58,483 bases of DNA, taken from contig DATCWB010000576.1 in NCBI GenBank assembly GCA_036566625.1, positions 1-58,483 on the forward strand. The letters are read 5' to 3'. The first letter of the stretch is position 1. Every line of letters begins with the position of its first letter. This document shows, in pieces, positions 181-46,947 of this stretch. The notes under the pieces are model-generated. The model searched no databases and had not been told where the DNA came from. It saw only the letters and a list, made by a program, of their open reading frames with translations. Both the position numbers and the translations under genes were made by a program. This DNA comes from Pyrinomonadaceae bacterium (GTDB lineage: Bacteria > Acidobacteriota > Blastocatellia > Pyrinomonadales > Pyrinomonadaceae).

Positions 181-210
181 TTGACACCTCTGTGCGATGC
201 AAGCTAACTT
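181..210 (+). promoter_or_regulatory. candidate sigma70-type promoter for ORF 315-1070
   Basis: Consensus -35 TTGACA at 181-186. A weak -10 follows: CTAACT at 204-209 (17-nt spacer) or TAACTT at 205-210 (18-nt spacer). It lies about 105 nt upstream of the ATG at 315. Confidence 0.35.
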
Positions 211-303
211 ACCTCCGTTTTTGACCACCGGGTACGCTCGTCCTTTTCCTCGCTAACCATTAACTCGTTACCGGCAATTCTATCCCGAACGTTATTCCAT
301 TTT

Positions 304-308
304 GGAGG
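304..308 (+). promoter_or_regulatory. Shine-Dalgarno GGAGG for ORF 315-1070
   Basis: GGAGG at 304-308, 6 nt before the ATG at 315. Confidence 0.6.
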
Positions 309-314
309 TACAAA

Positions 315-1070: not shown

Positions 1071-1129
1071 ATCATCCTCATCCACTCAAGTGCGTGTCCT
1101 GCGCGACTGACCGTGGAGTGTCTCTCATT

Positions 1130-10969: not shown

Positions 10970-10986
10970 GAGATTTTCGAGCGATC

Positions 10987-23373: not shown

Positions 23374-26300
23374 TTACAATGTCCCCGCTGAAGGCGGAAG
23401 CTCGGAGAGCTTAGATTCAGCCTGTTCGTCAGTCATGTTCTCCAAGCCTTCAAGTAGTTGTGCGAGTTCGTCGTAGTCGTGGCCTTCAAGTGTCTGTTCG
23501 AGCCACACCGCGGACAGTTCGGCGATCGTTTGATTCTGGAATAAATCGTTCAACTCCAGCCTGGCTCCATACCCCTGTCTCAAACGCGCAAGGATTTGCG
23601 TCGCCAGCAGCGAGTGACCGCCCAGATCGAAAAAATTGTCGTGGATGCCGATCCTGGATACTCCCAGTAACTCCTGCCAGATTTCGGCCAACACCGTTTC
23701 CTGCTCGTTGCTCGGCGCAACATATTCGCAACCGAGATCGGGGCGTTCATGACGCGGCAGTGTGTCATCACCGATGGGCATATCGTTTAGCTCAGGGCTG
23801 TCTTGTGGAGCAGCCAGCAAAACCGCTGAGCGCGTGGCGACGGTTTGCTCAGGTTTGCGTGGTTCGATCCAATATCGCTGTCGCTGAAACGGATACGTCG
23901 GCAAAGGAATTCGTCGGCGACGCTCGTCTCGGTAGTAGCTCGGCCAATCAACCGGCGCGCCCGACAACCAGAGTTGCCCCAGGGTCGCCAGTAGGAACTG
24001 CTGATCGTCTACTGTCTCAGTGGCGTGGGGCAAAGTCGTGTGACATTGAGGCTGGGGCACTGCGCCGATCTGCCTAGCTAGCCCAGTTAAGACCCGACCC
24101 GGCCCGACTTCCAACAGGATGTAAGGCAACTCGGCCAGCAGGGTTTTGAGTCCCGCCGAGAAGCGCACGGTGTTTCGCAAGTGATCAGACCAATAGGCCG
24201 GCCGAACCGCATCTTGCGCGTTGATCCAATCCCCGGTGAGATTTGAAATAAAAGGAATCTGCGGCGGGCTTAGGCGAATGCTCTCCATTGCCTGCTGAAA
24301 CGGCTTGAGCATCGGTTCCATCATCGAAGAGTGAAAAGCATGCGAGGTGTAGAGCCGCTTGCAGATCAAATTCCGTTCGTTAAGCCGCGCCTCAAACTCT
24401 TCCGCGGCGGCGACGGAGCCTGAAACAATGCACATTGATTGGCTGTTGACCGCGGCGATCTCAAGCAGCCCTGCAACCAGCGGCCGAACCTCATCTTCGG
24501 GGAGCGACACGGCCAACATCACGCCCGGTTGCATGGACTGCATCAAACGCCCGCGCGCCGCGACGATCTTCAGCGCATCCGGCAACGAGAAAACACCCGC
24601 GAGACAGGCCGCTACGTATTCACCGATACTGTGCCCGATCATCGCCGCCGGCCGGATGCCCCAACTGTGCCACAGCTTAGCCAGAGAATACTCGACCGCG
24701 AACAGCGACGGCTGGGCAACGGCGGTCTGTTGCAGTTCGGCGTCGTCCGCCTCTGCCGGTTCCGCAAACAGGATTCTTCTCAAGTCGCGCCCCAGTTCCG
24801 GCTCCAATAGTTCGGCACAGCGATCAATTTCTTCGCGGAATGTCTGTTCTCGTTCGTAGAGATCACGCGCCATTCCCGGATACTGGCTGCCCTGTCCGGG
24901 GAACATGAAGGCGATGCTTTGGGCGTTGTCCGCCACACCCGTCCGGATGCGCTTCGACTCTTCGAGCGCGGCGATTGCCTCGGGAACGCTAGTGGCGGAT
25001 AAAACCGCTCGCCGATTAAACGTTCGCCGGCCGAGTTGAAGCGTGTAGGCCACGTCGGGCAGGTTGGCGTGAGGGTGCGACCTGAGATGATTCGCCAGCC
25101 GCCGGATGGAATCCTCAAGAGCCGAGGGTGTTCTGGCCGACAACATCAAAAGCTGATGGGGACGTGAAGGAGCAACTGCCTGCTCGGTCGGCGCTTCTTC
25201 GATGATCGCGTGTGCGTTCGTTCCGCCGACGCCAAACGAACTGATTCCTGCGCGGCGCGGATGATGCTCGCCGCGCGGCCATTCTTTTAGCTGACTGACG
25301 ACATAAAACGGACTCTCTTCCAGACGGAGCTTGGGATTTGGCAGTTGGAAATGAAGGCTCGGCGCAAGTTGACCGTGTCTCATCCCCAGCACGATTTTCA
25401 TTAGACCCGCCAGGCCGGCCGCGGTATCGGCGTGGCCGATGTTCGATTTTACCGAACCCAATCCGCAATAGCCCATTCGCTGCGTGCTTTTGCGAAACGC
25501 ATGTGTCAGCCCTTCAACTTCAATCGGATCGCCCAGCGGTGTGGCCGTTCCGTGTGCTTCGACGTAGGAAATCGTATCGGGGTCTACCCCGGCTATTTCC
25601 AGCGCTTCGCAGATGACTGCGGTCTGGCCTTCGATACTTGGCGCCGTATAACCAACTTTCTCACGGCCATCATTATTGACGGCCGTTCCCTTCACCACCG
25701 CGTAGATGGTGTCGCCGGCGGCGCGTGCGTCATCCAAACGTTTAAGCACTACGGTCGCCACTCCGTTGCCGTCAATCAATCCACTGGGCGTGGCATCGAA
25801 CGGGCGACAACGCCCGTCAGGTGAATAGGCCGCGCCGGCTTCATAGATGTGACCCACCTTTTGCGGGAAGTGCACGGTGACCGCGCCAACCAGAGCCATG
25901 TCGGATTGGTGAGTCAGCAGATTCTGGCAGGCGAAATGGAGTGAGACCAGAGACGAAGAACACGCGGTACTAATGTTGACGCCGACGCCTTTCAGGTTCA
26001 TGGCATAGGCGATACGAGTGGCGACAAAATCCTTGTCGTTGCAGATAGACAGGTGAAAGCCGCCGACCTTAAGCGCGAGACCGGGGTGCGAGCAAATATT
26101 AAACGGCAGATAAGTGTTCAGCCCGGTGCTCGTAAATACTGAAATCCGGCCGTCGTATTTCTCGGAATCGTAACCCGCGTCTTCCAGCGCTTCCCAGGCG
26201 CATTCCATCAGTAAGCGATGTTGCGGGTCCATCAGCTCGGCTTCGCGGGGAGAGATTCCAAAAAACGCGGCGTCAAACATATCCGCATCATCCAGAACTC

Positions 26301-26508
26301 CCTTTGCGCCGACGAAATCGGGATGGCGGATCACTTCCAGGGGGAACCCCGAATCGAGCAACTCCTCTTCCGTAAAGTGTCCGATAGAGTCCACGCCGCT
26401 CCGGAGGTTCCGCCAGAACTTATCCAAATCGGACGCGCCCGGAAATCGTCCCGCCATTCCTATGATCGCGATGTCGTAACTTTCTTCGTGTGAGTTTTCA
26501 GTGCTCAT
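23374..26508 (-). CDS. single-module PKS: KS-AT-T, no reductive domains (1044 aa)
   Basis: Motifs: STACSSS, HGTAT, NIGH (KS); GHSIGE, HAFH (AT); FFDLGGHSL (PCP-type carrier). It starts 11 nt after the upstream stop. Confidence 0.95.
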   Translation of the reverse strand: MSTENSHEESYDIAIIGMAGRFPGASDLDKFWRNLRSGVDSIGHFTEEELLDSGFPLEVIRHPDFVGAKGVLDDADMFDAAFFGISPREAELMDPQHRLLMECAWEALEDAGYDSEKYDGRISVFTSTGLNTYLPFNICSHPGLALKVGGFHLSICNDKDFVATRIAYAMNLKGVGVNISTACSSSLVSLHFACQNLLTHQSDMALVGAVTVHFPQKVGHIYEAGAAYSPDGRCRPFDATPSGLIDGNGVATVVLKRLDDARAAGDTIYAVVKGTAVNNDGREKVGYTAPSIEGQTAVICEALEIAGVDPDTISYVEAHGTATPLGDPIEVEGLTHAFRKSTQRMGYCGLGSVKSNIGHADTAAGLAGLMKIVLGMRHGQLAPSLHFQLPNPKLRLEESPFYVVSQLKEWPRGEHHPRRAGISSFGVGGTNAHAIIEEAPTEQAVAPSRPHQLLMLSARTPSALEDSIRRLANHLRSHPHANLPDVAYTLQLGRRTFNRRAVLSATSVPEAIAALEESKRIRTGVADNAQSIAFMFPGQGSQYPGMARDLYEREQTFREEIDRCAELLEPELGRDLRRILFAEPAEADDAELQQTAVAQPSLFAVEYSLAKLWHSWGIRPAAMIGHSIGEYVAACLAGVFSLPDALKIVAARGRLMQSMQPGVMLAVSLPEDEVRPLVAGLLEIAAVNSQSMCIVSGSVAAAEEFEARLNERNLICKRLYTSHAFHSSMMEPMLKPFQQAMESIRLSPPQIPFISNLTGDWINAQDAVRPAYWSDHLRNTVRFSAGLKTLLAELPYILLEVGPGRVLTGLARQIGAVPQPQCHTTLPHATETVDDQQFLLATLGQLWLSGAPVDWPSYYRDERRRRIPLPTYPFQRQRYWIEPRKPEQTVATRSAVLLAAPQDSPELNDMPIGDDTLPRHERPDLGCEYVAPSNEQETVLAEIWQELLGVSRIGIHDNFFDLGGHSLLATQILARLRQGYGARLELNDLFQNQTIAELSAVWLEQTLEGHDYDELAQLLEGLENMTDEQAESKLSELPPSAGTL
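23500..26478 (-). other. PKS module 6: KS-AT-T (no reduction)
   Basis: KS 25195-26478 (Cys183). AT 23929-24915 (Ser627; HAFH). PCP-type carrier 23500-23715 (Ser966). Confidence 0.85.
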
Positions 26509-26519
26509 GATGAGTTTTG

Positions 26520-29500
26520 TCAGGTGTTGATGCGTTTGCGTTTATTCGCCAGTTTTCGCCAGGACTCTTTTTGCTGTACCACTCGCCGGTGCATTTCAGC
26601 GTCGCCGTTTGGCGGCGGCTCTTCGGAGTGGCCGAGGAACTCTGCGAGTGATCGGATGGTCGGATACTTGAAGAGGTCTAAGACCTGGAATTTGCCGTTG
26701 TTGAGGCTCTCCATGCGACGATACGCTTCGACTGCCAGCAGCGAATTACCGCCCAAGTCAAAGAAGTTGTCATGAACGCCAACCCGGTCGAGGTTGAGAA
26801 CGTTGCGGTGAATTTCGGCTAGAGCCCGTTCCAAGTCGTTTCGCGGCGCAGCGAATTCCGCCGACTGTTCGGGACGTTGGCGATCCGGCGGGGGAAGCGA
26901 CGCACGGTCAACCTTACCGTTCGTCGTCAAGGGCATCCTATCCAGCCTGACGAACGCCGATGGGATCATGTAATCGGGCAGCAGTCGCTTTAATTCATCG
27001 CGGAGCTTGCCAACCGACATCGCATCGCCATCGGCCGGACGAACATAAGCGACGAGGCGCGGGTTGCCGGGTTCATCTTCGCGGAGCACCACGACCGCTT
27101 CGACAATTTCCGGGCGCTGGAGCAATACGGACTCGATCTCCCCCAACTCAATGCGGAAGCCGCGCAACTTGATTTGTCCGTCGGTGCGGCCAAGATATTC
27201 CAGATTACCGTCCGCCAGATAACAAGCGCGGTCACCCGTCTTGTAGAGCCGCTCGCCCGGTAGCCCAAAACCACCCCGGCCTGCAAATGGATCGGGGACG
27301 AAAGATGTCGCGGTCAAGTCAGGCCGCCCCAAATAGCCACGCGCCAGGCCGGCGCCGCCGATGTAGAGTTCGCCCGCAACACCCACGGGCGTGAGTTGCA
27401 AGTGGTCATCGAGCACATAGAGCCGAGTGCCACTGATCGGTCGTCCAATCGGCACCGTATGTTCCGGCGGCTCGCTGAAGTCATGCGCGCAGCAACCCAC
27501 CACCGTTTCCGTGGGGCCATATTCATTAACAATGTGGAGCCGCCCATTTCGCGTCCAGCGATCAAGCGCGCGAGGCGAGATCGCTTCGCCCCCCAGGATG
27601 AGCCGCTGTGTGCCGTAGGCATCGGGTGCGTCGGTGAGGAGACGATTGAGCACGTCCAGGTGGGCGGGCGTGATCTTGATAAACCGGTAATTGGAACCAC
27701 GGCGGAGCGCATCGGCCAGCGCGGTCAACTCTTCGCCTTCGGGCAACAAGTCCACCTGCCCGCCGGCCATCAGAGGCACAAAGAGACTTGTGATCGTGGC
27801 GTCGAACCCGATTGAGCCGACCACAGGTGCAGTACCACCGTCGGGCATGTAGGCGTGCTCTGCCCAAAGCAGGTAGTTGGTCAGGCCGCGATGCGGAATG
27901 ACGACGCCTTTCGGCCGGCCGGTCGAGCCGGATGTGTACATGACATAGGCCGGATGGTCGAGATCGGCCGGGACGTTGGGATTGACTTTCGACTCACGGG
28001 CAAGAGGATCGCCTTCCTGATCGAGACAGAAAACTGCGCCGGGAGTTTTCGGCAGTTCCGCCAACAACTCACGTTGCGTAAGGAGCATCGCGATTTGGGC
28101 GTCGTCTCGTATCTGTTCGAGACGCGACGCTGGATATGCCGGGTCCATGGGGACATAGGCTGCGCCCGTTTTTAGCGTCCCAAGCAAAGCGACAAAAAGA
28201 TCGACTGATCGCCTGACACAGATGCCCACACGCTGTTCCGCACCGACTCCCGACCGGCGCAGGAAATGCGCCAACCGGTTTGCCCGCTCATTCAATTCGC
28301 GATATGAGATTTGAACCCCGTGCGGCGATTTGTCGCTAACCGCGATGGCGTCGGGTCGGCGTTCCGCCTGCGACTCGAAAAGTTGGTGGACGCATTGATC
28401 CACTCTTTGAGATTCCGTGTCGTTCCAGGCACGCAGCCGTTCTTGTCGCATCGCCGCGTCCAGCAACGGAAGCGTATGCAGATCGGCATCGGGATTCTCA
28501 ACGACACTCTCCAGCAGCGTTTTGTAATGAATCAAAAAGCGGTCAATCGTCGCCGCATTGAAGAGATCGGTATTGTAGTCGCATTCCAGAGTGATGCCCT
28601 CGTTGACGAGATTTGCCGTGAGGGTCAAGTCCATGCGGGCAAAGTTGACGTGCCTCTCGTATCGCGCGATCTGCAAGCCTCCCTCTGAAGATTCGCCCGT
28701 CGGCCGCTCAAGGTTGAAGATCGTCGAAATCAACGGGCTGCGGCTAATGTCGCGTTTCAGATTCAGTTTGTTAAGCAGACGCGCAAACGGGTAGTCCTGA
28801 TGTTGATAGGCGTCGAGGAGCGTGCTGCGCACGCGACGCAGGTGCTCGCTAAAAGGCATGCCCGCAGGCGACCCGGTAATGGTACTGACGATGGGAAGCA
28901 GGTGCGCGCAATAGCCGACGAGACTATCACCACCCTCCATTGCCCGGCCGGCGTAAGGGCAGCCGACGACGACCGTTTCCCGGCCGGTGAGTCGGTGAAG
29001 CAGCACCGTGTACACCGCCAGCAGCAGCATGAACGGTGTGTAGCCGCGCGAGCCGGCGAGTTTCGTCAACCGAGTGGTCAGTGTCTTGTCGATTGCCAAC
29101 TGCCGGATCGCGCCGTCGAACGTCTTGACGGCAGGCCGTGGACGGTCTGTTGGCAAATCGGCTGCGGCGGGCAGCTTCTCGAATTGTCGCAGCCAGTAGT
29201 TTTCATGCTCCTTCATCGCGGGCGACGATCTCTGTCCCTCGTGCCACCGAACAAACTCGCGGTACTGGAGCGGAGGTTCCAAGGCCGCCGCCGTGCCGCG
29301 CCGCCGTGCGACGTAACACGCGTCGATCTCATTGATCACGTTCATCATCGACATGCCGTCGGTGAGCAAGTGATGTGATCCCAAAATCAGTACGTGCCGT
29401 TCGGCCGCCACCTTGAGCAGCGTGGCCGTGAAAATTGGACCGTTCACAAAATCGATCAACGTCCGATTGAATTGATCCAGATGCTTACGCACCTCATCCT

Positions 29501-32500
29501 CCGAATCCTCGGCAGCGGAGACATCGAAAATTTGCAACGCCACGGGCGCGGGAGGATGGATGATGAGGCGGTCGCCAATTGGATCGACCGTGGTGCGGAG
29601 TGATTCGTGGCGGGCGACAACCTGATTCAGAGAGGCGGTCAAAGCGTCCGGGTCTATCTCGCCCTCGATAATCAGCACGGCAGGATCGTTGTAAGCTCTG
29701 GCTCCGTCGTCGGACACCTTCGTCAACAGCCAAAGCTGTTGCTGCGCTTCGCTCATCGGAAACGACACCGTACCGGATTGGCCGGAAGGAGCCGCCCAGC
29801 ACTTCCGCAATTCGTTAAGCGGCGGTAGACCACGCAACGCCGATTCGGTGGGAACGCCGAAGTCTACGAAGCACGCAATTTCGTCCACGCCCGCCGCAAT
29901 CAGATTTTCCAAGAGGGGGCGACAAGTGTCGGGCGAACCGATCAGCGCGCTGAACGCGACATATTTGTCGTACGCCTTCTGCACGATGTACTCACGATCT
30001 TCGGCCGACAACCCATCCAGGTCGATTGCCAAACTCTGGCTTTGCGCTAGGCGTTTGAAAAGCGTCATGGACGACAGCAAATAATCACACAGCGGCCGGC
30101 GAGCTTCACGGATGGCCTGCTCGGCATCTTCGCGGACGTACGTATGCAGTAAGACGGTTACATTACCCGCCTGCGGGTCGTGCCCGAATTCGGCGCGCGC
30201 CGCACGGTAGATTGCGATGTTGGCGGTCAACTCCTCAAGGGTTTGTCCCATCAGGTTTGTCAGTACGCCGACGCCCAACTCGCCCGCTTTGCGGTAAGTC
30301 TCCTGGTTGTTTACGATAGTGAGCCAACAGGGTAGTTCTGTCTGCCTGGGCAACGGGTGGAGCTTTAGATCGACATCTTTACCGGTGCCGTCGCGCAGCG
30401 ACAACGGTTCGCCCCTCCAGGCTCGGCGCACGGCCTCCATACCCTCAAACGTGAGTTCGCGCTGCCTGCCATAGCTCTGGGGGGCGAACACAAAATCATT
30501 CGGGTGCCAACCCGAAGCAAATGCGACGCCGACTCGACCGCCGGCCAGATTATCAACCAGCGACCATTCCTCGGCCACGCGCATCGGGTGATGCAGCGGC
30601 ATCACAACGCTACCGGCACGTAGTTGGACGCGTTTCGTTTCCCGGGACAGGGCGGCAGCCAGCACCGAGGGATTAGGCGAGAGGCCGCCGAATTCATGGA
30701 AATGCCGCTCGGGAACCCAGACGGCCTGAAATCCTTCGGCGTCGGCAAAGCGTGCTCCTCCGATCAACAACTCGTATTTGCTTGGAGAATAGGCGGCCTC
30801 GTACGTTCCGAAATATGAGAGGCTAAAAGCGAGCGGCTTGTTAGTACTGCGACGCGCCGTATCGCCGGCTACGGCGACCGCTTCTCCGCGTTGTCCCAGC
30901 TTGGACTTGCCGCGGTTCCAGAATCCCCTCCCGTTTCCGTTGTCTGCCGGGTGACCATTCGAGCCGCCCGTTTGTTTGTCGCTTCGAACCGGCATCCTGC
31001 ACTCGGCGGACACGGGCGTGGTGGGGCGGCCAGTCGGTTCGCGCGGAGGCAGAAATCCCCCTGCGCGCAAGTCCGCGACGCTCTCCTTAACGGCCTGAAC
31101 AACGCGTTCGAGTTCCTCATCTGTGTGCGCGGTTGAAAGAAAACAATTGCGCCACTCCCAGATGTAAATTCCCTTTGCCAGCATGTGGTAAAAAAAGAGT
31201 TCCAGGTTGCCGGAGAACTCGAAACGAAAGAAAGACGAGAAATGCGAGACGCGAATCGGCAATTCTTCACCGGCAAAAAATGTGTTCAGAGTCTCGGCGA
31301 ATTTGTCCGTGCGCTGATTCAGAGTTGTTTGCAGTGACGCCCCCCGGGCTACGAGGTGTCGGAGCACGGCCAGCGACGCAGCCATGGTGATGGGGTGTTG
31401 GCAAAATGTGCCGCCGAAGTAAGTTCGCGCCGCGCCCGGATATGAATTGTCGCCGAATCGCCACATGCCGCCGTCGATTCCGTTCAGAAAACGGGCGCTG
31501 CCGGCGACCGCGCCGATTGGCATGCCGCCGCCCAGGATTTTTCCGTAGGTGGCGATGTCGGCATCAATGCCGAACAGTCCCTGACAACCCGCCGGATGCG
31601 CCCGGAATCCGGTAATCATTTCGTCGAAAATCAACGCCGTTCCGGCTGCTTCGGTAAGCGCGCGCAATTCACGCAGGAAGGAGACGGGTTGAAAGTCAGG
31701 CCGGCGACTCTGCACCGGCTCGACCAACACGGCCGCCAACTCCTGCGCATGATCGCGGAGTATCTCTAACGACTGCGGCGAACCGTATTCCAGCACGAGT
31801 ACGTCACGCGCCACGTTAGCGGGAATACCGGGCGCTACCGGTTCGGAACTCAGATGATCACGTCCCCGCTGCGCCAGCGTGCCGTCCGAGTGACCGTGAT
31901 AGGAGCCCTCGAACAAAGCGATTTTAGAGCGGCCGGTGGCTGCTCGCGCCAAACGCAACGCGGTCATCACGGCCTCGGTTCCCGAGTTGGTAAACACGAC
32001 GCGCTCCGTGCCGGTCAGCTTGAGGAACAGACCGGTGACTTCCTCCATCAGGTCTGACCGCATACCCAGTTGAATTCCGCGCTGAAGCTCGTCGGCGATT
32101 GCCTGACAAACAAAATCGGGACGGCTGCCAAACAGCAATGCCCCGAAACCCATCGTCAAATCGATGTAGGTGTTTCCGTCCACATCCTTGAGCGAGGAAC
32201 CGAGCGCTTCCGCACCGGTGATCGGGTAAAGAATCTCCTTGGTCGAAAAACGAAATCCCACCGTGGCGCGGCTGTCGGCCAGACCGGCGCGGCAAGATTG
32301 AGCGAGCGCTTTAGACCGCTCTGTCCTGCTCGTAAACCGGCGAATGAAATCGTCGAGACTGCTCTGTTGTTGTTCGGTCATCCCGGTCGATTTAGCAGTG
32401 ACCGGATACCTGATGTCCTTGAGCGGTGAAGAGCGAGCCGTGGACACACTCGACGCAACGGTGTCGCCGGCATCATTCGCGCGCGGCGCAAACGGAGTCT

Positions 32501-35500
32501 CCACCGGCGTTGTGACTTCACCGGCAGCCTGGGAGGTTCGGGATGTAATAGCCGGTTGGGATGTAACGGATGCGCGCTGCAACAAATCCAGTTGGCGCGA
32601 CATCAACTCCATCTGAGCTTGAATGATGCGGGGGAGTTCCGAACCGAAGGCGTTGCCGATTGGTTCGGGCGACGCAACCGGCCGAGCGGCCTCCGGCAAA
32701 CTGATGCTTCCCACACTCGGCGCGGGGGGCATGGTTGCCACAGGTGTCGCGGACGCAGAGTTCGACACGGACGGTGTTTGAACGTCGGCCGGGGGCGGCA
32801 CGCGGTCGGCAATAAATTCGGCCAACGACGCGACCGTCGTGATCTCTTCGAAGAACTGCCGGATTTCCAGTTTCACCCGAAACCGTTCATCGATCTGTTT
32901 GACGGCATAGACAAGGATCAGCGAGTCTGCACCCATTTCCAGGAACGGAACGTCAAGGGGCACATTGGCCGGCTGTTCGCGAAGCATTTCGGCAACGAGT
33001 CGGATGATGTCCGTCTTGACGGATTCGCGATGGCCTCGCAGTCTGTCGGCTTCAGATACTATCGGTTCGGTTGACGCTGGCGTCATGATCTCATCTCGCT
33101 CTTTGATCCAATAACGCTTCCGTTGAAAGCGGTAGGTTGGTAAGTGAAGGCGTTGACGAGGAATGGACTCGTCGAGCTTTGCCCAGTTAACCTCAATTCC
33201 ATTGACGTAGGCCACAGCCAGACTCGCCAGCGGCAACTGCCACTCGTCGCCCTTTCCGCTCATCGAAGGCAACCACAGCGAACATGGCTTTATCTGTCCG
33301 GCGAGTTTCGATAACTCCCGGCTCAAGCCGATCTCAATAAACGGCCCATCGCGATCTTCCGTCAGCGAGTTGATGGTTTCGCGCGGATCGGGAACTGCCG
33401 CCTGAAACCGCCGTTGCCAGTAGGCCGCGTCGAACGCGATGCCTTCCGCAAGCGGCCGTCCATCAGGCCAGATCGCAATTTGCGGCGCTCTAAACCTCAC
33501 TCCATGCGCATGTGTCGCGATGTCATCGCGAGAAGACAGCCGCGCACGTTCCCACACCAACCGGAGACCATCCTCCAAATCAAACACGCCTGCGATACAA
33601 GCGGCGCAAAGCTCGCCCAGCCCGCGACCCGAAACGGCGAGCGGGCGAATTCCGAATGATTGCCACAAGGCGGCCAGGGCATACAGCAATGCGAACTGCG
33701 CGGAGAGCCGGTAAGTCGGTTGCCGCAAACGTTCGTCGTCTTCTGCGAACAAGACGGCCGAGATCGTGGCATCCATATCGGAGTGGCGCGCTGCGTCGCA
33801 AGAATCTATGGCCGAGCGGAACACGGCGCTGGTCTCGTACAGTTCGCGCCCGGTTCCCGGGTTCAACTCCTCGGCATCGGAAAATACGAACACTGGACTG
33901 GCGAGATTCGAGGAAGTCTCGCCGGCAAGAAACAATCCCGGCGTCTGTTGGCCGTTGCGAATTCCGGCAAGGCCGACGTGGAGGTCTTCGATACGGGAGG
34001 CACGGATGGCCGCTCGATGTTTGAAATGACTGCGACCGCAATTTGCGGTGTAACAGATATCGGCGATGGCATCGTCCGTCTGCTCCGCTAGGAACTCTTC
34101 ATACCTCGCGGCCAGTTCCGCCAACGCAGTTGGGGTCTTGGCCGAGAGCGTCAGCACATGCGCCCGCCGGTCCCGCTCCGGCGGCGCGACGGATACGGAC
34201 GGCGATTCCTCAAGGATCAAGTGTGCGTTCGAGCCGCTGACGCCGAAAGAACTCAGCGCGGCAAAACGGCGTTTGACGCCCCGCGGCCAATCAACGGGTT
34301 CACGCACCGGCCGTAGATTCATGCCGTCCCAATCGATCTTGGGATTCGGTTGATTGATGTGCAGGGTCGGTGGAATCCGGTCGTTACACATCGCCAGCAC
34401 CAGCTTGATCAGGCCGGTCACTCCGGCCGCCGACTCCAGGTGGCCGATATTCGATTTAACGGAACCGATCCACAGCGGCCGCTCGCGCGCGGCGTCGCGT
34501 CCCAGCACCGCGCCCAACGCGCCGGCCTCAATAGGATCGCCGAGCGCGGTTCCGGTTCCATGCGATTCGACATAATCGATCTCGGCGGGCGCGACGCCGG
34601 CCACCTCCAATGTACGCCGGATCAGAGCCTGCTGAGCAATGCCGTTGGGCACGGAAAATCCGCTGCTCGCGCCGTCCTGATTGATGGCTGTTCCGCGAAT
34701 GAGAGCCAGTATGCGGTCGCCGGCTTGCAACGCATCCGACAGCCTTCTCAGCACGACTATGCCGCAGCCCTCACCGCGTACGTATCCATCGGCTGAGGCG
34801 TCAAACGTCTTGCAGCGTCCGTCCGGAGCGACCATTTGCGCCGCGGCCAATGTGACGTTAGGCCAACTGGCGAGGATCAGGTTGACGCCGCCGGCCAACG
34901 CCATGTCGCATTCACGGTTTCGTAGTGACGAACATGCAAGGTGGATTGTGGTCAGCGACGATGAACAGGCCGTATCAATTGCCATGGACGGTCCCTGCAA
35001 ACCCAGCACGTAGGATACTCGTCCGGCGCAGGCGTTCAGCGCGGCGCCCGTGTTGAAATAGGGATCGTCGGGCAGCTTGTTCTGCTCCAGTTGCAGGCAG
35101 GCGTAGTCGCTCGCAGTGACCCCGACGAACACGCCCGTTAGCGTAGCTTTAAGCGACGACGGCGCAATTCCGGCGTGTTCGAGCGCTTCCCACGCAACTT
35201 CGAGCAGCAATCGCTGCTGCGGATCGACGGTCGCCGCCTCCCGCGCAGAGATGCCGAAGAACGCCGCGTCGAATGATTCCACGTTGTCCAGAAAGCCGCC
35301 GCGGCGGCTGTAAACTTTGCCCGGCATACCCGGCCGTGGATCGTAAAGCGCGTCTACATTCCAACGTTCGCGAGGCACTTCCGTGATCGCATCACGTCCC
35401 TGAGACAGCAATTCCCAAAAGGCGGCGGGGCTATCAGCCGCAGGCAAACGGCAACCCAGCCCAACGACGGCGATTGGCTCGGAGCGGGTAGCCCGTGCAG

Positions 35501-35597
35501 CGTCGAGTTGTTCTCGCAATTTGCGGATTGTGAGAAACGCTTTTTGGAGGGCGGTCAGTTCGCTGGTATTGGGGGTTTCCTGCTTCACATTCTTCAT
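26520..35597 (-). CDS. hybrid PKS-NRPS: KS-AT0-ACP-aminotransferase-LLM monooxygenase-C-A-T (3025 aa)
   Basis: Motifs: DTACSSS/HGTGT/NIGH (KS); degenerate AT (GRGLG); GADSL (ACP); class-III PLP aminotransferase (GSYHGHSDG, YGKILGGG); luciferase-like monooxygenase (WVPERHFHEFGG, VAEEWSLVDNLAGGRV); SHHLLTDGMS (C); YTSGSTGRPKG (A); GGNSL (T). Its ATG overlaps the upstream stop (ATGA). Confidence 0.95.
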   Translation of the reverse strand: MKNVKQETPNTSELTALQKAFLTIRKLREQLDAARATRSEPIAVVGLGCRLPAADSPAAFWELLSQGRDAITEVPRERWNVDALYDPRPGMPGKVYSRRGGFLDNVESFDAAFFGISAREAATVDPQQRLLLEVAWEALEHAGIAPSSLKATLTGVFVGVTASDYACLQLEQNKLPDDPYFNTGAALNACAGRVSYVLGLQGPSMAIDTACSSSLTTIHLACSSLRNRECDMALAGGVNLILASWPNVTLAAAQMVAPDGRCKTFDASADGYVRGEGCGIVVLRRLSDALQAGDRILALIRGTAINQDGASSGFSVPNGIAQQALIRRTLEVAGVAPAEIDYVESHGTGTALGDPIEAGALGAVLGRDAARERPLWIGSVKSNIGHLESAAGVTGLIKLVLAMCNDRIPPTLHINQPNPKIDWDGMNLRPVREPVDWPRGVKRRFAALSSFGVSGSNAHLILEESPSVSVAPPERDRRAHVLTLSAKTPTALAELAARYEEFLAEQTDDAIADICYTANCGRSHFKHRAAIRASRIEDLHVGLAGIRNGQQTPGLFLAGETSSNLASPVFVFSDAEELNPGTGRELYETSAVFRSAIDSCDAARHSDMDATISAVLFAEDDERLRQPTYRLSAQFALLYALAALWQSFGIRPLAVSGRGLGELCAACIAGVFDLEDGLRLVWERARLSSRDDIATHAHGVRFRAPQIAIWPDGRPLAEGIAFDAAYWQRRFQAAVPDPRETINSLTEDRDGPFIEIGLSRELSKLAGQIKPCSLWLPSMSGKGDEWQLPLASLAVAYVNGIEVNWAKLDESIPRQRLHLPTYRFQRKRYWIKERDEIMTPASTEPIVSEADRLRGHRESVKTDIIRLVAEMLREQPANVPLDVPFLEMGADSLILVYAVKQIDERFRVKLEIRQFFEEITTVASLAEFIADRVPPPADVQTPSVSNSASATPVATMPPAPSVGSISLPEAARPVASPEPIGNAFGSELPRIIQAQMELMSRQLDLLQRASVTSQPAITSRTSQAAGEVTTPVETPFAPRANDAGDTVASSVSTARSSPLKDIRYPVTAKSTGMTEQQQSSLDDFIRRFTSRTERSKALAQSCRAGLADSRATVGFRFSTKEILYPITGAEALGSSLKDVDGNTYIDLTMGFGALLFGSRPDFVCQAIADELQRGIQLGMRSDLMEEVTGLFLKLTGTERVVFTNSGTEAVMTALRLARAATGRSKIALFEGSYHGHSDGTLAQRGRDHLSSEPVAPGIPANVARDVLVLEYGSPQSLEILRDHAQELAAVLVEPVQSRRPDFQPVSFLRELRALTEAAGTALIFDEMITGFRAHPAGCQGLFGIDADIATYGKILGGGMPIGAVAGSARFLNGIDGGMWRFGDNSYPGAARTYFGGTFCQHPITMAASLAVLRHLVARGASLQTTLNQRTDKFAETLNTFFAGEELPIRVSHFSSFFRFEFSGNLELFFYHMLAKGIYIWEWRNCFLSTAHTDEELERVVQAVKESVADLRAGGFLPPREPTGRPTTPVSAECRMPVRSDKQTGGSNGHPADNGNGRGFWNRGKSKLGQRGEAVAVAGDTARRSTNKPLAFSLSYFGTYEAAYSPSKYELLIGGARFADAEGFQAVWVPERHFHEFGGLSPNPSVLAAALSRETKRVQLRAGSVVMPLHHPMRVAEEWSLVDNLAGGRVGVAFASGWHPNDFVFAPQSYGRQRELTFEGMEAVRRAWRGEPLSLRDGTGKDVDLKLHPLPRQTELPCWLTIVNNQETYRKAGELGVGVLTNLMGQTLEELTANIAIYRAARAEFGHDPQAGNVTVLLHTYVREDAEQAIREARRPLCDYLLSSMTLFKRLAQSQSLAIDLDGLSAEDREYIVQKAYDKYVAFSALIGSPDTCRPLLENLIAAGVDEIACFVDFGVPTESALRGLPPLNELRKCWAAPSGQSGTVSFPMSEAQQQLWLLTKVSDDGARAYNDPAVLIIEGEIDPDALTASLNQVVARHESLRTTVDPIGDRLIIHPPAPVALQIFDVSAAEDSEDEVRKHLDQFNRTLIDFVNGPIFTATLLKVAAERHVLILGSHHLLTDGMSMMNVINEIDACYVARRRGTAAALEPPLQYREFVRWHEGQRSSPAMKEHENYWLRQFEKLPAAADLPTDRPRPAVKTFDGAIRQLAIDKTLTTRLTKLAGSRGYTPFMLLLAVYTVLLHRLTGRETVVVGCPYAGRAMEGGDSLVGYCAHLLPIVSTITGSPAGMPFSEHLRRVRSTLLDAYQHQDYPFARLLNKLNLKRDISRSPLISTIFNLERPTGESSEGGLQIARYERHVNFARMDLTLTANLVNEGITLECDYNTDLFNAATIDRFLIHYKTLLESVVENPDADLHTLPLLDAAMRQERLRAWNDTESQRVDQCVHQLFESQAERRPDAIAVSDKSPHGVQISYRELNERANRLAHFLRRSGVGAEQRVGICVRRSVDLFVALLGTLKTGAAYVPMDPAYPASRLEQIRDDAQIAMLLTQRELLAELPKTPGAVFCLDQEGDPLARESKVNPNVPADLDHPAYVMYTSGSTGRPKGVVIPHRGLTNYLLWAEHAYMPDGGTAPVVGSIGFDATITSLFVPLMAGGQVDLLPEGEELTALADALRRGSNYRFIKITPAHLDVLNRLLTDAPDAYGTQRLILGGEAISPRALDRWTRNGRLHIVNEYGPTETVVGCCAHDFSEPPEHTVPIGRPISGTRLYVLDDHLQLTPVGVAGELYIGGAGLARGYLGRPDLTATSFVPDPFAGRGGFGLPGERLYKTGDRACYLADGNLEYLGRTDGQIKLRGFRIELGEIESVLLQRPEIVEAVVVLREDEPGNPRLVAYVRPADGDAMSVGKLRDELKRLLPDYMIPSAFVRLDRMPLTTNGKVDRASLPPPDRQRPEQSAEFAAPRNDLERALAEIHRNVLNLDRVGVHDNFFDLGGNSLLAVEAYRRMESLNNGKFQVLDLFKYPTIRSLAEFLGHSEEPPPNGDAEMHRRVVQQKESWRKLANKRKRINT
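26628..29765 (-). other. NRPS module 5: C-A-T, Asn-like specificity code
   Basis: C 28443-29765 (SHHLLTDGMS). A 26883-28400; the 10-residue code read by alignment to GrsA-PheA is DATKIGEVGK, close to remembered Asn codes DATKVGEVGK and DLTKLGEVGK. T 26628-26846 (GGNSL, Ser2952). Confidence 0.8.
29793..35480 (-). other. PKS module 4 with amination/oxygenation: KS-AT0-ACP-AMT-LLM
   Basis: KS 34203-35480 (Cys211 at nt 34965-34967). Degenerate AT 33153-33902 (GRGLG at nt 33615-33629). ACP 32808-33035 (Ser892). Aminotransferase 31053-32375 (PLP Lys1353 at nt 31539-31541). Luciferase-like monooxygenase 29793-30836. Confidence 0.85.
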
Positions 35598-38500
35598 TCC
35601 AAATTGAGCGCTTTCATTTCCTCATCGATCAATGCGGCGATCTGTTCATCGAGCAAGTCTTCGACCCGGCATTCATCAAGCAGGGCTTGGGGGGCCGGGC
35701 GGATGTTCGTCAGTGTGTGCGAGTCGGTTTCGTCCGTTTCGCTTTCCGGGAACAGTTGTTGGAGCAGATGTTCGACGAGGGCTGCGACCGTCGGGTAATC
35801 AAAACAGAGCGAGGACGGGAACTCGCGCCCCACCAGCTGTTGAATCCGATCCTTGATCTGGACGGCCATCAACGAATCCACACCGAGGTCAAAGAACCCC
35901 ACTTCGCGCTCGACAACCTGATCTCCGTCGAGACGCAACACATCCGAGACCAGCGATTGCACCTGACGAGCCAACCGTTCAAATCGTTCGCTCCGCGCCA
36001 TCGCCCGCAAATCGTTCACCAGCGGCGACTGGCCGGTTCCCGCGACAGGCGTTGTTTGCCCGCCAAAGTTATCGAATAAAGGCCGCCGTCCGTGCACCTC
36101 GTAAAGGTTCTTCAAACGCGTCCAATCCACATCGACAACCGCGACGCGACTTTCTCGCGAAGCCAAAAGTTGACCCAACGTGGAAAGCGCCTGTTCAGGC
36201 CGAAGCAAACGAAGTCCTCCGTCCGCGACCCGGCTCCCCCCATCAAGCGTTGACATGCCATCGCCGGCCCATGGCCCCCAGTTGATGGACAGCCCCGGCA
36301 GCCCTCGCCCTCGCCGATACTCGACGAAGCCATCGAGAAAAGCATTGGCCGCCGCATAATGCGCCTGGCTCGCGCTGCCCCACACCGCCGAGATGGACGA
36401 GAAGCAAATGAAAAAGTCGAGGTGCAAAGTCTCGGTGAGTTGATGCAGATTCAAAGCGCCCACGATCTTAGGAGCAAGCGTGCCCATCAACTGTGGCTGT
36501 TTCAATTCCTCGATGGAACACTGCTCGTTGACTCCGGCGGCGTGTACAACTCCCTTGAGTTGGAAAGAATTCGCGGCGAGCGTATCCCGCAGGGCTGCCA
36601 CGTCGGCTTTGTTCGTCACGTCGCCCCGCACAGACAACACACGACATCCTCTTTCTTTCAGGGAACGCAGTGCATTCAACGACCCGTCGGAAGGTTCGCT
36701 GCGGCTCATCAAGACCAGGCAGCCCGCGCCCAGTTCGGCCAGGAACCGAGCCACCTGTAGACCCAGCGCCCCGCAGCCGCCGGTGATCAAATAAGCACCA
36801 TCATCGGATAATCTGACCGTCGGCGATTCAGCCGGGCGATAAGACTCCAAACGGCTCACGTAGCGTTGATTATCGCGCCAGACCACGCAGTCTTCGCCTC
36901 TCGGATTGAGAAGTTCGTCTCTTACGCTGTTCGCCAGGTCTTCACCCTTGAAATCATCCAGGTCAATCAAACCACCTTTACATTTAGGGTGTTCGAGGAA
37001 TAGGCAACGTCCCAGGCCGAGGAGCGCGGTGGCGAACGGCGAGTTCAATTCTGCTGACCCGGCGGATGTTGCCCCTCGCGTCGCCAGCCACAATTTGGGC
37101 GTGCTATCGAGCGCCGCAACAGCCCGCGACAAGTGCACCACTCTGGAGAGTCCGAAATCGCCGACTCCTGAACTTGCGGCTTCCATGTCGGCAGTTGGCT
37201 CCCACAGATACACGATGCCTTCCAACTTACCGACCGTTTCCAACAATCTGCGATGGCCGTCCGACGAGTCGGATTCGATTGACCAACGGGTGTCGCTCAG
37301 GCGTTGAAACCCTGAACCGGGCGACGCGAAAATCACGCGGCGTCCGGTTGCCTCCAATGAGCGGGAGAGTTCCGGCCATTCGTGATCCGCGAGTATCAAC
37401 CATTGTCCTGTACCGTCGGCGATCACCGCGCGCTCAAGAGGTTTCTCCTGCCACACTGCCCGGTAACACAACTCTGCGGAATTAAACCAGTGGCGTTGAC
37501 GCTGGAACGGGTAGGTCGGCAATTTCGTTTGCCGCTCGAAACGACCTCGATAATAGGCAGACCAATCCACCGCTGCGCCGTGAACGAACAACTGTCCGAG
37601 AGTTTCCAGGCATTGACGGTGGTCTGAGACCTTTGGCCGCAGGCTGGGCAAAAAGATGGCTTTCGTGCCCGGCCGAGTTTCGGTCTCACTTTCGGTCTCG
37701 GCCAGCGACGATAAAACGGGTTGAGGACCAACTTCGACAAACAAACGTCCGTCTGCGTTGCGAAGTGTCTTGAGGGCGAGGTCAAACCGAACCGGCATTC
37801 GGACATGACTCACCCAATACTCCGGATTCGTAACTTCGTCCTGAACCAAATTGCCGGACACGCAGGAAACGAATCCAATTTCCGGTCGCCGGTATGAAAT
37901 CGAGCTTGCCACCGGGCGGAATAGTTCGAGGACAGGATCGGTAAGCGGTGAATGGAAGGCGTGTGAGACGTTAAGCTCTCTGGCCGTAATACCCCGAGCT
38001 TGCAGCGACGCAACGATCAGGGCGACAGCCTGCCTTTCGCCGGAGACGACGACGTGCCTGGCTCCGTTGACGGCGGCGATTGAAACTCGGGCGCGATGGG
38101 AGTCGATGGCTGCTGCGACGATTTGCTCAGGTGCGAAGATCGCGAACATGGCTCCGTCACGAGGCAGTTCTGAAAGAAGTCGGCCACGCTCGGCAATTAA
38201 GCGTAAGCCGTCCTCCGGACTGAATACGCCTGCCACTGCTGCGGCGACGTATTCGCCCACACTGTGTCCCGCAACAACGTCCGGCGTCACGCCCCATGAT
38301 CTCCACAATTCGGCGAGTGCATACTCCAGAACAAACAGCGCGGGCTGCGTGTAAGCCGTGTCATTCAGGAGATTCGGTTCCGCCGGTGACGAGCCGGCTT
38401 CCGGAAACAGAACCCTCAGCAGCGGGACTTTCAACTTCCGGTCGAGCGACATCGCTAGCCGGTCAACGATTTCGCGAAAAACAGGTTCGTCATCGTAAAG

Positions 38501-46945: not shown

Positions 46946-46947
46946 TT

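What the first reader, a model, noticed from the sequence alone, without database searches (positions are those of the whole stretch)
29793..32375. Aminotransferase-luciferase-like-monooxygenase didomain between ACP and C: predicted alpha-hydroxy-beta-amino acyl unit
aa 1075-1515 is a class-III PLP aminotransferase (NSGTEAVMTALRLAR, GSYHGHSDG, FDEMITGFR, PLP Lys1353 in ATYGKILGGG). aa 1588-1935 is a luciferase-like monooxygenase of the kind embedded in natural-product synthetases (FSLSYFG, WVPERHFHEFGGLSPNPSVLAAAL, AGSVVMPLHHPMRVAEEWSLVDNLAGGRVGVAFASGWHPNDF). Established knowledge: AMT domains in MycA/ItuA turn beta-ketoacyl-ACP into beta-aminoacyl-ACP. The LLM-type MOX domain of MtaG/MelG hydroxylates a carrier-bound alpha carbon. 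Having both on one ACP suggests a 3-amino-2-hydroxyacyl unit, the bestatin/microginin-type metalloprotease-binding motif. I recall oxygenase plus AMT combinations being proposed for cyanobacterial beta-amino lipopeptides but cannot verify that here. In those cases the chain is a plain fatty acid, not a tri-ketide-extended starter.
Basis: partly seen in the sequence, partly recalled or inferred. Interest (0 to 1): 0.7.

Follow-up and report, generated by a model that had tools for sequence, protein, structure and literature searches.

The report
PuwE-type aminotransferase-monooxygenase PKS/NRPS module
This is a real but already well-known type of assembly-line module, in which an aminotransferase and a flavin monooxygenase turn a carrier-bound beta-keto acid into a 3-amino-2-hydroxy acid; here it sits in an uncharacterised, probably acidobacterial, gene cluster and has lost its own acyltransferase.

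Summary
Residues 1075-1515 and 1588-1935 of a 3025-aa protein (window 26520-35597, minus strand) are an intact aminotransferase (AMT) domain and an intact luciferase-like monooxygenase (LLM) domain. They lie between one ACP and a condensation domain.

- **Structural matches:** the AMT matches the solved MycA AMT domain (PDB 6KFM, E 4e-145). The LLM matches the solved PuwE domain (PDB 6KET, E 8e-143, 58% identity).
- **Architecture:** KS-AT-ACP-AMT-Ox-C-A-PCP is the published PuwE arrangement.
- **Known products:** this domain pair is linked to 3-amino-2-hydroxy acids in puwainaphycins, microginins, ralstonins, tychonamides and floridanemamides. It recurs in at least nine bacterial groups.

The predicted 3-amino-2-hydroxyacyl unit is therefore well supported by homology, though not shown experimentally.

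Two things are specific to this window. The module's own AT is dead and truncated (GRGLG in place of GHSxG), so malonate must be loaded in trans. The closest relatives are Pyrinomonadaceae-like sequences with no known product.

Verdict: a new member of a known kind, of low to moderate interest.

The parts
34356..35480 (-). KS of the module (ORF C aa 40-414), with the Cys-His-His triad intact
   Evidence: Pfam ketoacyl-synt and Ketoacyl-synt_C. Motifs DTACSSS, SHGTGT and NIGHLE align with the other five KS domains of the window.
33033..33902 (-). Degenerate AT remnant (aa 566-855). It has GRGLGE in place of GHSxGE and SDAEEL in place of GQGSQ. The C-terminal two thirds are unrecognisable and there is no HAFH/YASH motif.
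   Evidence: Pfam Acyl_transf_1 covers only profile positions 3-125 of 319. Alignment to the ORF D AT stops after 125 residues. All 24 related AMT-LLM loci whose sequence reaches the upstream AT, and nearly all the AMT-only ones, have an intact serine motif (GHSxG, or SHSxG in Pseudoalteromonas) in the AT before the AMT; only the close relative L081 shares the loss. Motif scan.
32811..33008 (-). ACP (aa 864-929), with the phosphopantetheine Ser in GADSL (aa 892). It is the only carrier between the KS and the C domain.
   Evidence: Pfam PP-binding; motif position.
32376..32810 (-). Low-complexity Pro/Ala/Ser/Thr-rich linker between ACP and AMT (aa 930-1074)
   Evidence: No Pfam hit. It is nevertheless alignable with P0093 from a Pyrinomonadaceae MAG.
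31053..32375 (-). MycA-type PLP aminotransferase domain (aa 1075-1515); PLP Lys1353 is encoded at nt 31539-31541
   Evidence: Pfam Aminotran_3. PDB 6KFM/6KFU MycA AMT at E 4e-145 with TYGKI(L/I)GGG aligned. It keeps all 32 columns that are invariant in 80 homologues.
30837..31052 (-). Low-complexity AMT-LLM linker (aa 1516-1587)
   Evidence: No Pfam hit.
29793..30836 (-). PuwE-type FMN-dependent luciferase-like monooxygenase domain (aa 1588-1935)
   Evidence: TIGR04020 at 494 bits, full length. PDB 6KET PuwE at E 8e-143 and 58% identity. It keeps all 42 columns that are invariant in 26 AMT-linked LLM domains.
28443..29759 (-). Condensation domain (aa 1947-2385) with an intact HHLLTDG motif. 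It takes the modified acyl-ACP as donor.
   Evidence: Pfam Condensation at E 1.8e-89; motif.
26913..28379 (-). Adenylation domain (aa 2407-2895) with specificity code DATKIGEVGK, which I recall as an Asn code
   Evidence: Pfam AMP-binding and AMP-binding_C. Code extracted. The same or a near-identical code follows the AMT-LLM in L001-L005.
26643..26855 (-). PCP (about aa 2915-2985), with Ser in GGNSL
   Evidence: Second PP-binding stretch; motif at aa 2949-2955.
23959..24909 (-). Intact malonyl-type AT of the next gene (ORF D, KS-AT-CP, 23374-26508). It is the nearest candidate for loading the ORF C ACP in trans; this role is inferred.
   Evidence: Pfam Acyl_transf_1 covers 2-316 of 319. GHSIGE and HAFH are present.
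35594..57801 (-). Upstream assembly line that supplies the chain. ORF A is CAL-KR-MT-ACP-KS-AT-DH-KR-ACP. ORF B is KS-AT-DH-cMT-KR-ACP-KS-AT-KR-ACP.
   Evidence: Pfam. The loader code SIWWLAASGK lacks Asp235. All ATs are GHSxG plus HAFH.

Best explanation
ORF C is the fourth extension module of a hybrid PKS/NRPS. It is a PuwE-type module, KS-AT(dead)-ACP-AMT-Ox-C-A(Asn)-PCP.

Proposed steps, each marked as shown or inferred:
1. The KS receives the triketide-extended chain from ORF B, whose last module (KS-AT-KR-ACP) leaves a hydroxyl that becomes C5. The domain content is shown; the chain structure is inferred.
2. The ACP is loaded with malonate by an AT acting in trans, because its own AT lacks the catalytic Ser and His and most of its fold. 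The loss is shown. The identity of the helper is inferred. The nearest candidate is the intact AT of ORF D; a discrete AT encoded outside the window, of the FabD/FenF kind, is another possibility.
3. Decarboxylative condensation gives a beta-ketoacyl-S-ACP.
4. The FMN-dependent LLM domain hydroxylates C2, and the PLP-dependent AMT converts the C3 ketone to an amine. The result is a 3-amino-2-hydroxyacyl-S-ACP, here a 3-amino-2,5-dihydroxy polyketide acid. This function is inferred from homology and from the match between architecture and product in related pathways.
5. I think hydroxylation of the acidic C2 of the beta-keto thioester most likely comes before transamination. This is chemical inference only and was not tested.
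6. Reduced FMN must come from a flavin reductase encoded elsewhere, since the window has none.
7. The C domain joins the acyl group to Asn-S-PCP, and the chain passes to ORF D.
For: **Domain identity and integrity**
- Pfam and NCBIfam hits.
- MycA AMT structure at E 4e-145, with the PLP lysine aligned.
- PuwE LLM structure at E 8e-143 and 58% identity.
- No deviation at any family-invariant column in either domain.
- The KS triad, ACP Ser, C-domain HHxxxDG and PCP Ser are all intact.

**Same architecture as PuwE**
- The authors assign formation of the 3-amino-2-hydroxy-4-methylacyl unit to PuwE's AmT and Ox domains (PMC4219810).

**Match between architecture and product**
- AMT plus LLM goes with a 2-OH-3-NH2 unit in puwainaphycin, in tychonamide and floridanemamide, and in the microginin micD gene, whose cluster was expressed heterologously. 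It also holds for RmyA and ralstonin, which contains 3-amino-2-hydroxyoctadecanoic acid and is lost in an rmyA mutant.
- AMT alone goes with a 3-amino acid lacking the 2-OH in iturin/mycosubtilin and in laxaphycin Aoc.

**Conservation**
- The same KS-AT-ACP-AMT-LLM-C-A-PCP order occurs in about 25 loci from at least nine bacterial groups.
- Against the syntenic relative L081, the stretch from mid-AMT through the LLM into the C domain (aa 1221-2101) is 83% identical, while the AT remnant is 67%. The didomain is therefore under the stronger constraint.
Against: - No product is known and no experiment exists for this cluster.
- In the papers I could read, even the PuwE, MicD and RmyA Ox domains are assigned their function from the match between architecture and product. 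None reports a domain-level assay, and I found no paper describing the 6KET structure.
- The module's own AT is dead. Extension therefore depends on a trans-loading step that has not been demonstrated.
- No flavin reductase gene is in the window.
- The order of the two tailoring reactions and the stereochemistry are unknown.
Confidence: 0.77

Rival explanations
1. The module is no longer functional as an extension module. With its AT dead, the ACP is never malonylated. The KS-ACP-AMT-LLM part is then skipped or decaying, and the product lacks the 3-amino-2-hydroxy unit.
For: - The AT has lost its catalytic Ser and His, the GQGSQ motif and about two thirds of the recognisable fold.
- All 24 related AMT-LLM loci whose sequence reaches the upstream AT, and nearly all the AMT-only ones, keep an intact serine motif (GHSxG, or SHSxG in Pseudoalteromonas) at this position.
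Against: - The 3025-codon ORF is uninterrupted.
- The KS triad and ACP Ser are intact.
- The AMT and LLM keep every family-invariant residue. Against L081, which carries the same dead AT, the stretch from mid-AMT through the LLM into the C domain (aa 1221-2101) is 83% identical while the AT remnant is only 67%. The state is therefore old and the tailoring domains are still constrained.
- From my own knowledge, there is a precedent for an AMT module without a cis-AT: MycA is loaded by FenF.
- An intact malonyl-type AT lies in the next gene.
Confidence: 0.1
2. The LLM goes beyond hydroxylation, or its product is oxidised further. The result would be an alpha-keto-beta-amino acid, a protease-reactive warhead, rather than the alpha-hydroxy acid.
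For: This rests only on my recollection, which I could not verify here. Alpha-keto-beta-amino units such as the 2-oxo-beta-leucine of myxoprincomide have been ascribed to PKS modules with AMT and oxygenase domains. A myxobacterial locus, L011 from Hyalangium, carries the same didomain.
Against: - Every pathway with this didomain and a known product that I could check gives the 2-hydroxy form.
- No extra dehydrogenase or oxidase gene lies in the window.
- My literature search for this chemistry returned nothing usable.
Confidence: 0.07
3. The LLM acts on another carrier-bound substrate. One option is the alpha-carbon of the Asn or Gly residues, as proposed for MtaG/MelG. Another is the unreduced beta-ketoacyl intermediate on the KR-less ORF D module.
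For: - LLM domains of the TIGR04020 family perform different oxidations in different pathways; the family is named for MupA and Atu3671.
- ORF D lacks the KR that the equivalent module has in L001 and L003. A second beta-keto thioester therefore exists nearby.
Against: - The domain is 58% identical to the PuwE Ox domain over its full length and sits in the same position, between the AMT and the C domain.
- In the homologue search, the great majority of the best-scoring proteins (roughly the first 90 of the 120 listed) carry the LLM fused to an AMT.
- From memory, the MtaG/MelG MOX lies inside the NRPS module. This one lies upstream of the C domain.
Confidence: 0.05

Closest known systems
PuwE of the puwainaphycin synthetase (Cylindrospermum alatosporum); its LLM domain structure is PDB 6KET
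   Same: - Identical domain order, KS-AT-ACP-AmT-Ox-C-A-PCP.
- The LLM is 58% identical over 343 residues without a gap.
- Proposed chemistry: a 3-amino-2-hydroxyacyl unit is made on the ACP and then condensed to the first amino acid.
   Different: - PuwE has a working AT; here it is dead.
- PuwE modifies a FAAL-loaded fatty acid extended by one PKS module. Here the chain comes from a CAL-KR-MT-ACP loader and three PKS modules.
- The first amino acid is predicted to be Val in PuwE; here the specificity code reads as Asn.
- The host here is not a cyanobacterium. It has 59% GC and its relatives are Pyrinomonadaceae-like.
AM-OX modules of the tychonamide, floridanemamide, pahayokolide, portoamide and nostophycin-class pathways (Athmu, Atpoa and Ahoa units)
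   Same: - The aminotransferase plus monooxygenase pair acts on a polyketide-extended, hydroxylated chain that starts from an A/CAL(-KR) loader.
- L007, from the Floridaenema aerugineum genome (strain BLCC-F46), has the same module order, including the preceding KS-AT module.
   Different: - Those pathways are cyanobacterial and their products are known.
- Their ATs are intact.
- Their peptide parts are different.
RmyA (ralsolamycin/ralstonin synthetase, Ralstonia solanacearum)
   Same: - It is a non-cyanobacterial PKS/NRPS with aminotransferase and luciferase-like monooxygenase domains after a KS.
- Its product contains 3-amino-2-hydroxyoctadecanoic acid.
   Different: - It uses a FAAL-loaded fatty acid with no multi-module polyketide extension.
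- I did not compare its sequence with the window directly.
MicD of the microginin (mic) cluster
   Same: - KS-AT-ACP-AMT-LLM-C-A is seen in the Microcystis loci L009 and L010.
- An LLM domain is annotated in micD, and the cluster was shown to make microginins in E. coli.
   Different: - The starter is a fatty acid.
- The products are linear peptides with a free 3-amino group.
- The AT is intact.
MycA (mycosubtilin/iturin synthetase A, Bacillus); its AMT structure is PDB 6KFM
   Same: - The AMT domain is a very close sequence match at E 4e-145.
- From my own knowledge, an AMT-C-A(Asn) cassette follows in both cases; the window's code is.
- Also from my own knowledge, the MycA module has no cis-AT and is loaded in trans by FenF. 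This parallels the dead AT here.
   Different: MycA has no LLM domain, and iturinic acid has no 2-hydroxyl.

Membership tests
PuwE-type AMT-Ox tailoring module (KS-AT-ACP-AMT-LLM-C-A-PCP) | MycA-type class-III PLP aminotransferase domain with the catalytic lysine | tested here: met
   Pfam Aminotran_3. 6KFM at E 4e-145 with Lys1353 aligned to the TYGK lysine. All 32 invariant columns are kept.
PuwE-type AMT-Ox tailoring module (KS-AT-ACP-AMT-LLM-C-A-PCP) | Natural-product LLM domain fused directly to the AMT | tested here: met
   TIGR04020 at 494 bits against a cut-off of 244. 6KET PuwE at E 8e-143 and 58% identity. A 72-aa linker separates it from the AMT.
PuwE-type AMT-Ox tailoring module (KS-AT-ACP-AMT-LLM-C-A-PCP) | The didomain lies between a single ACP and the C domain of an NRPS module on one polypeptide | tested here: met
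   Domain order from Pfam. The same order is seen in about 25 related loci.
PuwE-type AMT-Ox tailoring module (KS-AT-ACP-AMT-LLM-C-A-PCP) | Elongating KS upstream, with no KR, DH or ER, so that a beta-keto thioester is presented | tested here: met
   The C-H-H triad is intact. There are no reductive domains between the KS and the ACP.
PuwE-type AMT-Ox tailoring module (KS-AT-ACP-AMT-LLM-C-A-PCP) | Functional cis-AT in the module | tested here: not met
   GRGLGE replaces GHSxGE, the GQGSQ motif is lost, and only positions 3-125 of 319 of the profile are matched. Relatives have an intact motif. This is a departure in how the module is supplied with malonate, not in the tailoring didomain.
PuwE-type AMT-Ox tailoring module (KS-AT-ACP-AMT-LLM-C-A-PCP) | Product carries a 3-amino-2-hydroxyacyl unit | not testable with these tools
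   This needs isolation of the product or in vitro reconstitution.
TIGR04020 MupA/Atu3671 FMN-dependent LLM | Full-length match above the curated cut-off | tested here: met
   Positions 1-341 of 341 at 494-497 bits, against a cut-off of 244.45.
TIGR04020 MupA/Atu3671 FMN-dependent LLM | Binds FMN and uses O2 | not testable with these tools
   The evidence is indirect only: no deviation at the 42 invariant columns, and the ERHFH and FASGW segments are identical to those of PuwE.
MtaG/MelG-type MOX (oxidation of a PCP-bound amino acid alpha-carbon) | LLM embedded inside the NRPS module whose PCP-bound amino acid it oxidises (as I recall the MtaG/MelG architecture) | tested here: not met
   The LLM lies upstream of the C domain and is fused to the AMT. 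I had no MtaG or MelG sequence for a direct comparison.

The most novel reading that the evidence does not exclude
The most novel reading not excluded is as follows. An uncultured, Pyrinomonadaceae-like acidobacterium makes an undescribed glycine-rich polyketide-peptide carrying a 3-amino-2,5-dihydroxy, methyl-branched dienoic acid, which would bear a bestatin/microginin-type metal-binding motif. It does so with a PuwE-type module that has lost its own acyltransferase and depends on the AT of the neighbouring KR-less module, ORF D. One AT would then serve two carriers, and the AMT-Ox pair might also see the second beta-keto intermediate.
Probability: 0.3. Interest if true: 0.45.

Novelty: new member of a known kind. 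Interest (0 to 1): 0.25.

Why it matters
The 3-amino-2-hydroxy acid motif is the zinc-binding pharmacophore of aminopeptidase inhibitors such as bestatin and the microginins. A cluster predicted to make one on a new polyketide scaffold, in a barely explored phylum, is a reasonable target for genome mining.

Mechanistically it adds little. The domain pair, its position in the protein and its proposed chemistry have been described since 2014.

The one point a specialist might follow up is the dead AT, which is conserved between two related clusters. It offers a natural test of how AMT-Ox modules are loaded in trans.

Tried and rejected
- **Papers on the 6KET/6KFM structures.** None is held, so no active-site residues from a structural paper could be checked. 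I used family-invariant columns instead.
- **LuxA alignment.** LuxA His44 and Arg107 align to Arg and Ser in the window, and to the same residues in PuwE. LuxA numbering is therefore not a valid activity test for this subfamily, and I dropped it.
- **Literature searches that gave nothing usable.** These were a search on 'PuwE' alone (only unrelated hits), myxoprincomide (badly framed), alpha-keto-beta-amino acids, bestatin and the nostophycin paper PMC3208980 (not held). The bestatin search did lead by chance to the RmyA precedent. The alpha-keto rival therefore rests on memory alone.
- **Source genome.** I looked for it in genome contigs. The best match is only 63% identical, so it is not among the species representatives. 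The taxonomy is inferred from P0093 and L081 only.
- **MtaG/MelG-type role for the LLM.** Considered and rejected as the main reading, on grounds of position and of PuwE identity.
- **Opposite-strand ORFs inside the region** (for example 28800-29378 and 32556-33074 on the plus strand). I took these to be by-products of a 59% GC coding strand.
- **Not run.** No structure prediction or fold search, because both domains have solved close homologues.
Full report
**1. The observation**

The finding lies inside one ORF, window 26520..35597 on the minus strand (3025 aa).

Pfam gives the following domain order:
- KS at 40-414
- KS-AT linker
- a partial AT at 571-693
- ACP at 864-929
- Aminotran_3 at 1126-1482 (E 8.8e-47)
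- Bac_luciferase at 1608-1905 (E 8.6e-47)
- Condensation at 1947-2385
- AMP-binding at 2407-2895
- PCP

NCBIfam places the oxygenase in TIGR04020, the MupA/Atu3671 family of FMN-dependent LLMs from natural-product pathways. The match is full length at 494 bits, against a cut-off of 244.

**2. What the two domains are**

Both have close homologues with solved structures.
- The AMT matches the aminotransferase domain of mycosubtilin synthase MycA (6KFM, 6KFR, and the ACP-AMT construct 6KFU) at E 4e-145 over its whole length. The PLP lysine motif is aligned.
- The LLM matches PDB 6KET, deposited as 'PuwE', at E 8e-143. It is 58% identical over 343 residues without a single gap.

I aligned the window's domains with those recovered from related loci.
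- The LLM keeps all 42 columns that are invariant in 26 AMT-linked LLM domains.
- The AMT keeps all 32 columns that are invariant in 80 homologues.
- Each deviates at only three near-invariant columns.

The rest of the module also looks intact. The KS has its Cys-His-His triad, and the ACP (GADSL), C domain (HHLLTDG) and PCP (GGNSL) motifs are present. Nothing in the sequence suggests that either tailoring domain is inactive.

**3. Context**

The window from 1130 to 57801 is one minus-strand assembly line.

| ORF | Domains |
|---|---|
| A | CAL/FAAL-like ligase (no Asp235; code SIWWLAASGK), KR, MT, ACP, then KS-AT-DH-KR-ACP |
| B | KS-AT-DH-cMT-KR-ACP, then KS-AT-KR-ACP |
| C | the module in question |
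| D | KS-AT-carrier, with no KR |
| E | C-A(Gly code)-nMT-PCP, then two more NRPS modules; extra C-type domains between the second and third (probably an E domain, not checked) |
| F | docking domain, C-A(Gly code)-PCP-KS-AT-KR-ACP-TE |
| G | Asp/Asn beta-hydroxylase |

The A domain of ORF C has the code DATKIGEVGK, which I recall as an Asn code. All ATs other than the one in ORF C are GHSxG plus HAFH, the malonyl type.

**4. How it compares with what is known**

The order KS-AT-ACP-AmT-Ox-C-A-PCP is the published architecture of PuwE. [quoted passage not shown]

The same pair is reported in several other pathways:
- the microginin gene micD, whose cluster was shown by expression in E. coli to make microginins (PMC9594780);
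- the tychonamide and floridanemamide pathways (PMC13252402);
- outside cyanobacteria, RmyA of Ralstonia solanacearum (PMC4989320), whose products, the ralstonins, contain 3-amino-2-hydroxyoctadecanoic acid (PMC9659194).

Pathways with the AMT alone give 3-amino acids without the 2-hydroxyl. Examples are iturin/mycosubtilin and laxaphycin, which contains 3-aminooctanoic acid (PMC8471579). This pattern of presence and absence is the main functional evidence for the Ox domain. I found no domain-level assay and no paper describing 6KET.

That is outdated. The 2026 preprint describes three starter strategies: an A-KR alpha-keto acid, a CAL-loaded aromatic acid, and a CAL/FAAL-loaded fatty acid. 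These feed polyketide-extended 3-amino-2-hydroxy units (Athmu, Atpoa, Ahoa, Ahda) made by the same AM-OX pair.

**5. Distribution**

In a protein search with the didomain, roughly the first 90 of the 120 best protein clusters carry PF00202 and PF00296 together. They come from Streptomyces, Acidobacteriota, cyanobacteria, Burkholderiales and Verrucomicrobia.

A scan of species-representative genomes, followed by tblastn domain mapping, showed KS-AT-ACP-AMT-LLM-C-A-PCP in these groups:
- Proteobacteria MAGs (L001, L003-L005)
- Cylindrospermum, Floridaenema, Nostoc and Microcystis (L006-L010)
- Hyalangium (L011)
- Acidobacteriota/Pyrinomonadaceae (L012, L018, L021)
- Burkholderia (L013, L014, L016)
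- Streptomyces (L017, L019)
- a PVC-group bacterium (L023)
- Chloroflexota (L025)

The closest set, L001-L005, shares more than the didomain. It has a KS-AT-KR-ACP module before it, an Asn-code A domain after it, and then a further KS-AT-(KR)-ACP module.

The window's nearest relatives are two sequences.
- L081 is a frameshift-ridden ENA metagenome contig. It is syntenic and 67-85% identical at the protein level.
- P0093 is a fragment from a Pyrinomonadaceae MAG. It is 83% identical across the ACP, the low-complexity linker and the AMT.

Together with the 59% GC content, this points to a Pyrinomonadaceae-like acidobacterium. That assignment is an inference.

**6. What is unusual here**

The AT of this module is not functional.
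- Pfam recognises only the first 125 of 319 profile positions.
- The active-site GHSxG reads GRGLG, and the GQGSQ motif reads SDAEE.
- Alignment with the intact AT of ORF D ends after 125 residues.
- No HAFH or YASH motif is present.

All 24 related AMT-LLM loci whose sequence reaches the upstream AT, and nearly all the AMT-only ones, carry an intact serine motif in the AT in front of the AMT (GHSxG, or SHSxG in Pseudoalteromonas). Only L081 shares the Ser-to-Gly loss, reading SHGLG.

Between the window and L081 the remnant is 67% identical. The KS is 81% identical, and the aligned stretch from mid-AMT through the LLM into the C domain (aa 1221-2101) is 83% identical. The AT has therefore been dead for some time while the rest stays constrained.

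The KS is clearly an elongating one, so the ACP must be malonylated in trans. The nearest candidate is the AT of ORF D. From my own knowledge, MycA itself lacks a cis-AT and is served by FenF, so this is a variation with a precedent.

**7. Mechanism**

The sequence shows the following:
- the identity, order and integrity of the domains;
- the loss of the AT.

The following are inferred from homology and from the match between architecture and product:
- the KS makes a beta-ketoacyl-ACP;
- the LLM adds the C2 hydroxyl;
- the AMT converts the C3 ketone to an amine;
- the C domain couples the acyl group to Asn-PCP.

The following are inferred from chemistry only:
- hydroxylation probably comes before transamination, because C2 of a beta-keto thioester is the better nucleophile for a flavin hydroperoxide;
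- reduced FMN must come from a reductase encoded elsewhere, since the window has none.

I put 0.77 on this explanation. The rivals are:
- the module is inactive because of the dead AT (0.10);
- further oxidation gives an alpha-keto-beta-amino acid (0.07; this rests on memory alone);
- the LLM acts on another carrier (0.05).

**8. Verdict**

It is, however, a textbook-grade known module type rather than a new combination. It is best filed as a new member of the PuwE/MicD/RmyA kind, in an uncharacterised and probably acidobacterial cluster, with a conserved dead AT as its only unusual trait. Interest: 0.25.

Noticed in passing
window 33033-33902 (-), ORF C aa 566-855: The AT of the AMT-Ox module is a degenerate, truncated remnant, with GRGLGE for GHSxGE, SDAEEL for GQGSQ, and no HAFH. 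All 24 related AMT-LLM loci whose sequence reaches the upstream AT, and nearly all the AMT-only ones, keep an intact serine motif there. Only the close relative L081 shares the loss (SHGLGE).
   Followed up: yes
window 23374-26508 (-), ORF D: This stand-alone KS-AT-carrier module follows the Asn module and has no KR. The equivalent module in L001 and L003 has a KR between the AT and the carrier. The window and L081 both lack that KR and both have the dead AT in ORF C. The unreduced beta-keto group would sit next to the Asn-derived carbon.
   Followed up: partly
window 52492-57801 (-), ORF A aa 1-1770: The loading region is unusual. About 200 residues at the N-terminus have no family hit. They are followed by a FAAL/CAL-like ligase (code SIWWLAASGK, no Asp235, FGMAETG in place of YGPTE), a KR, a methyltransferase (about aa 1320-1430) and an ACP. 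The starter acid and the roles of the KR and MT are unknown.
   Followed up: partly
L029 (Calothrix sp. HK-06, MRCD01000078.1) 10028-12862: The two tailoring domains occur in the reverse order, ACP-LLM-AMT-C. Domain order is therefore not fixed in this family and says nothing about the order of the reactions.
   Followed up: no
window 26913-28379 (-); L001-L005, L035, L037, L038, L060, L062, L077: The A domain immediately after the AMT, or after the AMT-LLM pair, carries an Asn-type code (DATK[IV]GEVGK or DLTK[IV]GEVGK) in many unrelated hosts, with or without the LLM. This suggests an old AMT-C-A(Asn) cassette of the MycA kind, into which the LLM has been inserted or from which it has been lost.
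   Followed up: partly
window 1130-2161 (-), ORF G: An Asp/Asn beta-hydroxylase family gene (PF05118, E 1.8e-29) lies directly after the TE-containing gene. It may hydroxylate the Asn residue, which would add a second oxygen unrelated to the LLM and matters when interpreting product masses.
   Followed up: no
L024 6382-7260; L031 and L032 about 4070-4681; L037 1593-2135: Other loci contain AT-like remnants in which the active-site Ser is replaced by Gly (GNGVGE, GHGIGE, GCGVGE). In L024 and L037 a second, complete AT follows the remnant. Degenerate ATs may therefore be a recurrent feature of these assembly lines.
   Followed up: no
window 1-1130 and 57802-58483: The cluster's edges fall within the window. 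GC drops to 0.53 in the first 2 kb. The only sizeable ORF there (315-1070 on the plus strand, 251 aa) has no Pfam hit. There is no flavin reductase, PPTase, MbtH-like or transporter gene in the window.
   Followed up: partly
window 10987-11056: The longest ORF F starts at a TTG that overlaps the end of ORF E by 70 nt. The TubC-type docking domain begins at about residue 27, so the true start is probably further downstream.
   Followed up: no
L081 (ENA ERZ25039489 contig_200071): The closest syntenic relative is broken into many short called genes by frameshifts. This looks like assembly or sequencing error rather than decay, but I did not test it.
   Followed up: no
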